Source: Escherichia coli | Lineage (GTDB): Bacteria; Pseudomonadota; Gammaproteobacteria; Enterobacterales; Enterobacteriaceae | Reading direction: 5' to 3' (one strand) | DNA length: 64,000 nt | Assembly (NCBI RefSeq): GCF_017348835.2 | Contig: NZ_CP071375.1 | Part shown: one piece after another, positions 1 through 3,000 of the stretch | How the letters are laid out: each line of letters opens with the position of its first letter | Position numbering within the stretch: the stretch's first letter is position 1 | Program-made: the position numbers

Positions 1-3000
1 GTTTCTTCTTTATGGTGTAGTGTGATCTTCACTTTATGGATGCTAACAATATGAAAAGAAAAATTATTCCCGTGCTAATCGGTTGTACGCTCTCTTTCTC
101 TGCCCTGGCGGCACAACCTACGGCTGAGCGCTATGTCGTCAGTTTTCCAGAAGGCACGCACGTGAACTATGCCGGCGCATTTGCCAGTGCATTCCCGAAC
201 GGCCTTCCGGTTGGGATAGGTTCTGGCCTGCTGTTCACCGGTAAACAGGGCGATGCCCTGACATTCGCAACTATTACCGATCGCGGTCCGAACGCGGATT
301 CACCGAAAGAGGGGAAAAACGAAACTAAAATTTTCGTTACGCCAGATTTCGCGCCGCTGCTGATGACGATTCGTGTACAAAACGGCAAAGCGGAGGCCAT
401 CGATCCCCGTCCTCTGCATGACGATAAAGGCGCGATCAACGGTCTGCCGCTGGCAAGCGACGTGATTGGCTCCACCAATGAAGTGGCCTTCAGCGACACG
501 TTACATAGACTGAAGGGGGATAATCGCGGGCTGGATACGGAAGGGATCACTCCGGATGGTAAAGGAGGTTAGTTCCAGTTTGCTCACTCGTGTTAAGAAG
601 GTATTGATCACCTGAACATCCGAATTGGTGAGCCTATTTAATAGAGCGGGTGGTATACCTTTACTAACAATCGCTTTGCGGTGACTTTCGTAGTTTTTAT
701 TACTCATTGTTGATCCTCAAAAATCATTGTATGGCGGCATTGATCGTTTCCAGCAACCTTTACTTACTCACTTCGAACTGCATCCTCGTAGACTGTTCCA
801 CTACAATAATCGAAAAGGCGCGGATGTCCATTCAGGTATCCCGCTAATACGTATAGCAATAACAATGGCTTATGCGGCGCGCGCTGTTCACCCTTGTGCC
901 AGATTTTTATATTGGCAATTGCCTGCTGTAGCGATTTACTGGAAGCTATTGATATCCCTGGCAGTGAAATAATTGCGATCATGCTCGCAAATTTTCTGCT
1001 GTTCAAGCCTGCAAGTGAAGATATATTACCTTGATCTCATTTGTTTTTTTGCTGCCTGTTCTGAGAACGTATAAGGACATTCTCCATGAATAAACTCCCT
1101 GATCATCTTCCGCGGCGGTATATCATCGAAGCTATCCATTTATGGGATGCGGGAGAAACTCATCAGTTCCAGCCTGCGCGGTTGTATGAGATTGAATATC
1201 ATGGCCGACGTTACCCCTCGAAGGCGATTGCTGGCATCGCAGCGACATTGATGACGGGGACGCAATTTACCCCTGCGGATTTCACCGGCGGAATAAAATC
1301 TAAATGTGTCAAGCTACTCATAGAGCAGGGATTTCATATTCATCTGGATAAAGCCGCTGCGGCTCCCATAGCCGACGTTCTGTTCCCGGATGAGTTGCCG
1401 TCGCAGGAGACATACCTTGAAGGTGCGGCGATAAAGGTGACAGTAAACCGCTATGAACGCGATAAAAAGGCCCGAGATAAAGCGGTCGAACATCATGGAT
1501 GCCAGTGCAACGTATGCGGTGTTGATCTGGTGAAGATCTATGGTGATATCGCTGAAGGCTTTATCCATGTGCATCACCTGGTGCCGCTGTCAGCCATTAA
1601 AGAGGATTACCAGCTGGATCCAGTTAATGATTTGCTGCCTGTGTACCCTAATTGCCATGCGATGTTGCACCGACGCAAACCACCGTTTACGCCGGAGCAG
1701 TTAAAAGCGCTGATGGATGCGAATAAATCAAATTAATGAACGCTCACCTTTCGCGCCAAAACTGCAAAATTGCTTCTACAAACTTGTCAGAAATAATCCC
1801 CCGACGGGCTGCCGTGCTGAAATGACTGCTTCGCAGTGCCGTCGTCCAGTTCTCCGGTGACCGGTACGCTGAACCGTAATATCCCGTGCTTAAATCGTCC
1901 GGGTCTTCATCAGGCGCGTTCGTCAGTCCTCTTTCACCTTGTTGCTGGAAGTCGACGAAAATAATATTGGCTAAAACATTATTTTGATAATTGCCATAAA
2001 TAACTTCATACGCATGAGGGAAATTTTCTTTCCAGTACCAGGTGGTATCGCCGCAAAACCACGGTGCGTCAGTAATATTATTAAGCTGAGAATGGTATTG
2101 TTTTAGATCCCTACGAAAGGCTTCAACCATATGATTAAAGTGTTGAGGGTGTGACGCGTAGTCACTGGTCATTAAGTCAAATTCGCCTTGCATCCAGCAT
2201 ACGCCGAGGAATTTGTTATGCGGATTTTTTGCCAGTGCGGCTCGCGTTCTGCTGACTAAATCCTGGTATAGCGGAGTATCCGTTCCCCAACGACAAGCAT
2301 CATGGCTGGCTCCGTGCCGTTCTGAATATGTCCCTTCGCTGCCCGCGGTAAAAGCCGATCCGCCACGGCAACACGGAACGATGAGAACCCCTGCATTATC
2401 AGGAATAAAGGGCAGTAATTTCCGTGCTATATGCAGTGCCTGGCCAACGGTGCCGTACTGTGTTTGATGATTCGTTGCCAGAGGATGGTGATAACCCTGC
2501 ATATCCTGAACATCGTGTGGGCAGTGAGTCAGTGGAATAATGTCGTTAAAGTGACATGACGGGCCTCCGGGATGCGTATGCGCAAATCTCGCTAATTGTT
2601 TAATTCTGGGATGAGGCGCATCTTCCCTGTCCGGTAATGGCAGTCCTTCGCCATACGCCATGGCATTAGACTGACCAGCAACGGTAAGAATATAGTAATA
2701 ATCAGGCGATATTATTGCGTTCATATAAATTTCGCGTAATTGAAATGACAAATTGATAGCAGGGCCCCTTTACCGGGGCCCTGAAGCGTTAGTTTTGTAC
2801 TGTGACTTTATTATCCTTCACAGAAATTAAAACTGAATCCATCACTGCTTTGCCGCCTGCAGTTTCACCGCCAATAATTAATAAACTATTATTCCAGGGC
2901 AATGATACTCCGTAGGCCCGACCTTGCGATAATTCACCCGATTTATCCCATTTCCCGTTATACCAAAGATGAATATCAGCGCTATATGATTTTTTCAGGC

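What the first reader, a model, noticed from the sequence alone, without database searches (positions are those of the whole stretch)
36..1085. Truncated exported-protein gene and short fragment ORFs mark a likely insertion boundary next to the HNH gene
The first ORF has a signal peptide but stops at 178 aa with no continuation. The next ~500 bp hold only short ORFs; two on the minus strand (764..1006 and 501..707) show weak resemblance to the N-terminal region of the adjacent HNH protein (IKIWHKGEQ versus IHLWDAGET; RKAIVSKG versus SKAIAGIA). This could be a decayed divergent paralogue, but the spacing of the two motifs does not match the intact protein, so the similarity may be chance.
Basis: inference. 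Interest (0 to 1): 0.35.

Follow-up and report, generated by a model that had tools for sequence, protein, structure and literature searches.

The report
Deletion scars beside an HNH nuclease gene
This stretch is ordinary gene wreckage in a variable E. coli genomic island: the front third of a secreted esterase gene, a piece of an orphan mini-gene and the first 54 codons of a phosphorothioate-sensing restriction enzyme, joined by deletions next to an intact nuclease gene.

Summary
The coordinates and ORFs are real, and the first ORF is truncated. It holds codons 1-173 of a 452-aa phytase-like esterase. Compared with strain EC98, a 7,741-bp deletion with 2-bp TA microhomology at 570/571 cut it and created the stop codon. 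Only 15 of 5,426 complete E. coli genomes share this junction.

ORF 501..707 (minus) is the first 46 codons of an E. coli-only 61-aa orphan ORF, read through the junction.

ORF 764..1006 (minus) is the first 54 codons of a 290-aa EcoWI-type restriction endonuclease (sulfur-binding domain plus HNH). Its start codon has mutated from ATG to ATA. About 970 genomes carry this stub.

The claimed likeness to the N-terminus of the neighbouring HNH protein is chance: tblastn gives E=1.1 for that motif, and a profile comparison aligns only the start of the HNH domain. The two proteins match different ScoMcrA domains, the head domain and the sulfur-binding domain.

The HNH gene is not a recent insertion. 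Traces of the divergent gene pair lie beside nanS in 4,935 of 5,426 genomes, including K-12, in at least five decay states.

RefSeq already flags the esterase and endonuclease fragments as pseudogenes. The finding is low in interest and already known.

The parts
36..572 (+). 5' fragment of a phytase-like esterase gene (PF13449 family). The annotated CDS starts at 51. Codons 1-173 run over 51..569. The stop TAG at 570..572 was created by the junction.
   Evidence: 100% identity to residues 1-173 of the 452-aa protein WP_000823243, with nothing further in the window. The full-length protein hits PF13449 at E=4e-43. PGAP marks it 'incomplete, missing C-terminus' in strain PE164.
570..571 (.). Junction A: deletion breakpoint with 2-bp TA microhomology. 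7,741 bp are missing relative to strain EC98.
   Evidence: Three-way comparison of window, L003 and L002. Window 1-571 and 570-2733 map to EC98 positions 9528-10098 and 17838-20001. The junction is present in 15 of 5,426 genomes.
572..785 (.). Orphan segment of unknown origin (GC 0.41), always found fused to the endonuclease stub.
   Evidence: Found in about 970 genomes, always next to the stub. No match in genomes with the intact endonuclease. GC content.
570..707 (-). First 46 codons of a 61-aa orphan ORF (WP_000066585).
   Evidence: Intact 61-aa ORF in EC98 and M3. All 120 best database hits are at least 97% identical and the named ones are all E. coli, with no Pfam domain. No Pfam, NCBIfam or PADLOC family match.
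764..949 (-). Stub of an EcoWI-type SBD-HNH 'phosphorothioated DNA-binding restriction endonuclease'. Codons 1-54 lie at 949..785, followed by 6 foreign codons and a stop at 766..764. The start codon is ATA instead of ATG.
   Evidence: tblastn of the intact 290-aa protein matches residues 1-54 at 91% identity, E=1e-26. NF045808 scores 60 bits over profile positions 2-45 of 284. The start codon is ATG in M3 and ATA in the window and EC98. PGAP marks it a pseudogene.
950..1085 (.). Divergent intergenic region between the endonuclease stub and the HNH gene. It presumably holds the promoter of the intact HNH gene.
   Evidence: Colinear with the intact locus of ET358. The consensus scan found no sigma-70-like site here, so the promoter is inferred, not shown.
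1086..1736 (+). Intact 216-aa nuclease: ScoMcrA-head-like domain (PF26345) plus HNH domain.
1048..1059 (+). First copy of the 12-bp direct repeat TTTGCTGCCTGT. The second copy is at 1631..1642. In other strains, recombination between them deleted 583 bp and left only the last 35 codons of the HNH gene.
   Evidence: HNH C-terminal stubs are seen in many genomes.
1631..1642 (+). Second copy of the 12-bp direct repeat.

Best explanation
Window 36..1085 is a composite deletion scar at the far end of the leuX-tRNA genomic island of E. coli, just before nanS-nanM-nanC-fimB. Three dead pieces are joined.

(1) Codons 1-173 of a secreted phytase-like esterase gene.

(2) 214 bp holding the first 46 codons of an E. 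coli-only 61-aa orphan ORF.

(3) The first 54 codons of an EcoWI-type restriction endonuclease. The intact enzyme has a sulfur-binding domain and an HNH nuclease domain and cuts phosphorothioate-modified DNA.

Two separate events made the scar. The older, widespread one replaced everything after codon 54 of the endonuclease with the orphan segment; the start codon later mutated from ATG to ATA. A recent 7.7-kb deletion with 2-bp microhomology then removed the rest of the esterase gene, an IS66 element, several island genes and the end of the orphan ORF.

None of the pieces can work. The esterase fragment lacks about 60% of its domain. The endonuclease stub lacks most of its sulfur-binding domain and all of its nuclease domain.

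Shown: the identities, the breakpoints and the population frequencies. Inferred: the order of events and the non-function of the pieces.
For: - Esterase fragment: 100% identity to residues 1-173 of 452 and nothing further in the window. The gene is intact in Ecol_542 and EC98.
- Junction A: TA microhomology. Exactly 7,741 bp are absent relative to EC98. It is shared by 15 complete genomes, so it is not an assembly error.
- Endonuclease stub: residues 1-54 at 91% identity, E=1e-26. It hits NF045808 over profile positions 2-45. The intact 290-aa gene occupies the same position in ET358, KSC9 and RM12581.
- Start codon: ATG in M3, ATA in the window and EC98.
- The junction between the stub and the orphan segment occurs in about 970 genomes.
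- PGAP already annotates the esterase and endonuclease fragments as incomplete pseudogenes in the near-identical strain PE164 (1 mismatch in 8,623 bp).
- The intact enzyme type is experimentally characterised as EcoWI (PMC7461809).
Against: - The origin of segment 572..785 is unknown, so the older event could be a replacement by recombination rather than a simple deletion.
- Homology around 786..805 is fuzzy, with a 3-nt indel and several mismatches, so breakpoint B is only placed to within about 20 bp.
- No expression data were available, so residual transcription or a small-peptide role cannot be excluded.
- The '80% or more coverage' counts do not prove intact reading frames.
Confidence: 0.9

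Rival explanations
1. One reading: the minus-strand fragments are a decayed divergent paralogue of the adjacent 216-aa HNH protein, recognisable by N-terminal motifs.
For: Both genes encode HNH-superfamily nucleases and are divergently arranged. The intact 290-aa protein and the 216-aa protein align weakly at the linker and start of the HNH domain (BLASTP E=0.002; hhalign 31 columns, probability 58%).
Against: The remnant lacks that shared region. The N-termini map to different ScoMcrA domains, head 4-93 versus SBD 97-232. The HNH domains belong to different Pfam families, PF01844 and PF13391. ORF 501..707 is an unrelated orphan.
Confidence: 0.03
2. The HNH gene is a recently inserted mobile element (for example a homing-type HNH gene), and 36..1085 marks its insertion boundary.
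For: The locus is variable. Only 1,238 of 5,426 genomes carry a full-length HNH gene. IS fragments lie nearby.
Against: Remnants of both the HNH gene and the endonuclease lie at the same place beside nanS in 4,935 of 5,426 genomes. These include diverged K-12 remnants at 85-89% identity. Absence of the HNH gene in other strains is explained by identifiable deletions: a 583-bp deletion between 12-bp repeats and the K-12 deletion. No terminal repeats or att-like duplications were found.
Confidence: 0.04
3. The short ORFs are functional new small proteins: the chimeric 68-aa ORF 501..707, or a 60-residue N-terminal SBD peptide acting for example as a decoy or regulator.
For: The stub and the orphan ORF persist in about 970 genomes. 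The orphan ORF is intact in most of them and is annotated as a hypothetical protein.
Against: In the window the stub has lost its ATG, and the orphan ORF has lost its last 15 codons to a junction present in only 15 genomes. No family, defence-system or RNA model matches. Persistence is as expected for linked neutral DNA within clonal lineages.
Confidence: 0.03

Closest known systems
EcoWI / SprMcrA-type SBD-HNH phosphorothioate-dependent restriction endonucleases (NCBIfam NF045808; PMC7461809)
   Same: The intact allele of ORF 764..1006 is a 290-aa, 33.2-33.4 kDa protein. It matches NF045808 end to end (439 bits against a cut-off of 180) and combines a ScoMcrA-like sulfur-binding domain with an HNH_2 domain. 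The size agrees with the 33.4 kDa reported for EcoWI.
   Different: The window keeps only codons 1-54, with no YP sulfur-contact region, no HNH domain and no ATG. Identity with the published EcoWI sequence could not be checked because no sequence or accession was found in the papers held.
ScoMcrA of Streptomyces coelicolor (PDB 5ZMM; head-SBD-SRA-HNH; PMC6224610)
   Same: The two divergent E. coli genes each carry one ScoMcrA N-terminal module fused to its own HNH domain: head-HNH (216 aa, intact here) and SBD-HNH (290 aa, stub here).
   Different: There is no SRA domain. The modules are split over two genes. The two HNH domains belong to different Pfam families. The head domain has no known function (PMC6224610).
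Phytase-like esterase family (Pfam PF13449, 'esterase-like activity of phytase')
   Same: The full-length 452-aa homologue matches the whole domain at E=4e-43. The window fragment is identical to its first 173 residues.
   Different: The fragment ends at about domain position 120 of 284 and does not itself reach any Pfam threshold.
leuX-tRNA genomic islands of E. coli (KpLE2 region of K-12)
   Same: Same chromosomal slot between leuX/ahr and nanS-nanM-nanC-fimB, with IS fragments and defence genes such as AbiJ, McrBC, AbiE and Zorya in different strains.
   Different: In this strain the island is reduced to about 5 kb of mostly broken genes.

Membership tests
NF045808 phosphorothioated DNA-binding restriction endonuclease (EcoWI type) | Whole-protein score at or above the curated cut-off of 180 bits | tested here: not met
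   The window ORF 764..1006 scores 60.2 bits over profile positions 2-45 of 284. The intact ET358 allele scores 438.7 bits. The window piece is a remnant of a member, not a member.
NF045808 phosphorothioated DNA-binding restriction endonuclease (EcoWI type) | Complete sulfur-binding domain (ScoMcrA 97-232 equivalent, with HK/HR and YP sulfur-contact residues) | tested here: not met
   Only residues 1-54 remain. The HK motif (APHKP) is present but the rest of the domain is gone. The motif description is from PMC7461809.
NF045808 phosphorothioated DNA-binding restriction endonuclease (EcoWI type) | C-terminal HNH_2 nuclease domain | tested here: not met
   PF13391 lies at residues 181-235 of the intact protein. 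No such sequence occurs anywhere in the window.
   tblastn best E=0.16; the proposed motif scores E=1.1. BLASTP and hhalign of the intact proteins align only at the start of the HNH domain.
Phytase-like esterase (PF13449) | Full-length domain (284 profile positions) preceded by an export signal | tested here: not met
   The fragment stops at residue 173 of 452 and has no Pfam hit above threshold. The intact homologue covers profile positions 4-284. The signal peptide was judged by eye only.
ScoMcrA_N (PF26345) + HNH nucleases (the intact neighbour, 1086..1736) | N-terminal head-domain homology and the HNH catalytic motif | tested here: met
   [not shown]
ScoMcrA_N (PF26345) + HNH nucleases (the intact neighbour, 1086..1736) | Modification-dependent DNA cleavage | not testable with these tools
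   No biochemical data were found. The function of the head domain is stated as unknown in PMC6224610.

The most novel reading that the evidence does not exclude
The scar itself is ordinary. The most novel reading left open concerns its neighbour and former partner. Under it, the head-HNH gene (intact here) and the SBD-HNH gene (stub here) form a 'split ScoMcrA', and the head domain, whose function is unknown, is an unrecognised DNA- or modification-reading module of an uncharacterised type IV-like restriction enzyme carried by about 23% of E. coli genomes. The loss of the phosphorothioate-sensing partner in this lineage would then be adaptive, for example tolerance of PT-modified DNA, rather than neutral.
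Probability: 0.12. Interest if true: 0.4.

Novelty: already known. Interest (0 to 1): 0.1.

Why it matters
It matters little beyond annotation. The result shows that the fragments are pseudogene remnants of known families, and that this strain has lost an EcoWI-type phosphorothioate-dependent restriction enzyme while keeping the neighbouring head-HNH nuclease.

The site beside nanS holds at least five decay states of the same two-gene defence module across E. coli. It could therefore serve as a lineage marker and as a small case study of how defence genes erode.

The one open biological question is what the ScoMcrA-head domain of the surviving 216-aa nuclease recognises.

Tried and rejected
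- Pfam, NCBIfam and PADLOC scans of the 61-aa orphan ORF and of the window fragments gave nothing beyond the NF045808 hit for the stub.
- The homologue search for the orphan ORF returned only near-identical copies; every named one is from E. coli, so no function can be assigned.
- Rfam at E<=1 over 1..2000 gave no hit.
- The repeat search across the whole island in PE164 found no att-like duplication of the leuX 3' end or IS termini that would explain the junctions.
- The consensus promoter scan found no convincing promoter in 950..1085.
- I tried to confirm that the intact allele is EcoWI itself. The papers and supplement give no sequence or accession for EcoWI, so only the size agreement stands.
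- I considered that the endonuclease and HNH genes are kept in a mutually exclusive way. Rejected: 326 genomes have both at full length, against about 389 expected if independent (1707 x 1238 / 5426). This is no clear departure, given that the genomes are phylogenetically non-independent.
- I considered that the pair is an obligate two-gene system. Rejected: the head-HNH gene stands alone in Citrobacter and Pantoea, although the pair is conserved in Klebsiella aerogenes.

Full report
**Where the window comes from.** The first 8.6 kb differ by one base from E. coli strain PE164, NZ_CP114128. The region lies at the far end of the leuX-tRNA island, directly before nanS-nanM-nanC-fimB-fimE. In this strain the whole island between leuX and nanS is only about 5 kb. 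It consists of an AbiJ-like gene, a hypothetical gene, three IS fragments, the features of the finding, and one intact 216-aa HNH gene.

**Observation check.** The motif strings exist but carry no statistical weight. tblastn of the 216-aa protein against 500..1085 with word size 2 and no filters gives a best hit of E=0.16 on the plus strand.

**First ORF (36..572).** RefSeq starts the gene at 51. The product is 100% identical to residues 1-173 of a 452-aa 'esterase-like activity of phytase family protein', WP_000823243 (PF13449, E=4e-43 for the full protein). No other part of that protein is encoded in the 64-kb window. At 570/571 the sequence switches from the esterase gene to unrelated DNA. 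The two parental sequences share only the dinucleotide TA, and the junction turns the Tyr174 codon TAC into the stop TAG. Strain EC98 carries both parental sequences. In EC98 the two sides are separated by exactly 7,741 bp. That stretch holds the rest of the esterase gene, an IS66 element, two zinc-ribbon genes, an inovirus-Gp2-family gene, hha, and IS2 and DUF932 fragments. Only 15 of 5,426 complete genomes have this junction. It is therefore a recent, lineage-specific deletion and not an assembly artefact.

**Segment 572..785 and ORF 501..707.**
- In EC98 and M3 a 61-aa ORF (MSNKNYESHRKAIVSKG...IISMV; WP_000066585 in M3) occupies this place.
- The window keeps its first 46 codons and then reads through the junction into antisense esterase sequence.
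- The 61-aa protein is an orphan. All 120 best of 259 database hits are at least 97% identical, every named hit is from E. coli, and none has a Pfam domain.
- No Pfam, NCBIfam or PADLOC model matches it.
- The segment is found in about 970 genomes, always fused to the endonuclease stub.
- What lies to its left varies by strain: an AbiE toxin-antitoxin pair in M3, HTH and DUF4942 fragments in IAL7255, a DUF932 fragment in EC98, and the esterase fragment here.

**ORF 764..1006.** This is the N-terminus of a 'phosphorothioated DNA-binding restriction endonuclease'.
- The intact gene is 290 aa and 33.2 kDa. It sits at the same position in ET358, KSC9 and O145:H28 RM12581.
- The intact protein matches NCBIfam NF045808 end to end (439 bits, cut-off 180). 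It has a ScoMcrA-type sulfur-binding domain (residues 5-140 match ScoMcrA 97-232) and an HNH_2 domain at residues 181-235.
- This is the enzyme type characterised as EcoWI. EcoWI cuts GpsAAC/GpsTTC-modified DNA and blocks transformation by dnd+ plasmids (PMC7461809). Its reported size of 33.4 kDa fits, but no EcoWI sequence was available to confirm identity.
- The window retains residues 1-54 (949..785; 91% identity, E=1e-26), then six foreign codons and a stop.
- The true start codon at 949 is ATA here and in EC98 but ATG in M3. This is a secondary mutation after truncation, as expected for a dead gene.
- The TTG at 1006 used by the ORF finder is only an upstream in-frame codon.
- The breakpoint lies between about 785 and 805, where homology becomes patchy.

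**Relation to the neighbouring HNH protein.**
- BLASTP of the intact 290-aa protein against the 216-aa protein aligns only the linker and the first cysteines of the HNH domain (E=0.002).
- A 34-sequence profile of the 216-aa family aligns to the same 31 columns and to nothing N-terminal.
- Homologues carry PF26345 (ScoMcrA_N) plus PF01844.

The two divergent genes therefore carry two different ScoMcrA modules, head and SBD, each fused to its own HNH domain from a different Pfam family. The part they share is missing from the remnant.

**Insertion or deletion?** The REase/HNH pair is old at this site. Some trace of it is present in 4,935 of 5,426 genomes. At least five states exist.
1. Both genes at full length: 326 genomes, for example ET358.
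2. Endonuclease full length (1,707 genomes in all), usually with the HNH gene cut down to its last 35 codons. The cause is a 583-bp deletion between 12-bp direct repeats, TTTGCTGCCTGT, at window 1048-1059 and 1631-1642.
3. Endonuclease stub plus intact HNH gene, as in this window: about 970 genomes. The HNH gene is full length in 1,238 genomes in all.
4. K-12: diverged remnants of both genes (85-89% identity) between yjhR and nanS.
5. NDM4: the C-terminal half of the endonuclease plus the HNH stub.

Common sequence resumes at 1741, three bases before the nanS stop codon. The number of genomes with both genes (326) is close to the 389 expected if the two losses were independent. I see no evidence of coupling or exclusion. 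These counts are based on 80% or more coverage, not on verified reading frames.

**Outside E. coli.** Klebsiella aerogenes has the same divergent pair plus a third reader-HNH gene (Mrr_N-HNH) beside a type I restriction subunit. Citrobacter freundii and Pantoea stewartii have the head-HNH gene alone. In Citrobacter it lies about 3 kb from dnd-like genes. The head-HNH nuclease is thus an autonomous module of defence islands and not an obligate partner of the SBD-HNH enzyme.

**Mechanism and verdict.**
- Shown: the identity of each piece, both junctions, and their frequencies.
- Inferred: the order of events. The widespread endonuclease truncation came first, then the ATG-to-ATA change, then the rare 7.7-kb deletion.
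- Also inferred: none of the pieces is functional. The esterase fragment lacks about 60% of its domain. The stub lacks most of the SBD and the entire nuclease.
- No RNA family, repeat structure or promoter signal suggests another role.
- RefSeq already marks the esterase and endonuclease fragments as incomplete pseudogenes.

The finding is real but ordinary. The truncation and the boundary are confirmed, the paralogue idea is rejected, and 'insertion boundary' should read 'stacked deletion scars in a decaying defence-gene corner of the leuX island'.

Noticed in passing
window 1744-2724 (minus strand) and 1736-1825 (plus strand): The nanS reading frame is intact in the window: 326 codons, 319/326 identical to K-12 NanS. 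PGAP nevertheless annotates only a partial 'sialate O-acetylesterase' pseudogene in PE164, EC98, M3 and IAL7255. In those genomes it also annotates a 29-aa 'hypothetical protein' (YthB in K-12 relatives) antisense to the nanS 3' end. This looks like an annotation conflict rather than real decay.
   Followed up: partly
window 8186-8781 (plus strand): fimA is split into two ORFs (8186..8476 and 8602..8781). This agrees with the 'frameshifted' flag in PE164, so the strain probably cannot make the major type 1 fimbrial subunit.
   Followed up: partly
L013 3260-5636 (Klebsiella aerogenes contig): Three different reader-HNH nuclease genes sit side by side next to a type I restriction R subunit: Mrr_N-HNH, SBD-HNH_2 and ScoMcrA_N-HNH. 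This looks like a small array of probable modification-dependent nucleases.
   Followed up: no
L017 and L018 5001-10651 (Citrobacter freundii): The head-HNH gene occurs without the SBD-HNH partner, about 3 kb from dnd-like genes (Aminotran_5, DNA_S_mod_dnd_assoc_4, SMC/AAA_23). This fits the idea that the head-HNH nuclease does not attack the host's own phosphorothioate marks, but it was not tested.
   Followed up: no
L001 2388-6000 (PE164, upstream of the window): The leuX island is reduced to about 5 kb in this strain: an AbiJ-NTD4 gene, one hypothetical gene and fragments of IS30, IS3 and another transposase. The fec operon that precedes the esterase gene in EC98 and Ecol_542 is absent.
   Followed up: partly
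L004 5229-9174 (O145:H28 RM12581): In this strain the intact SBD-HNH gene is followed by a nanM fragment and a type II Zorya system (zorA2, zorB2, zorE) instead of the HNH gene and nanS. This is another rearrangement of the same corner.
   Followed up: no
[not shown]
   Followed up: partly
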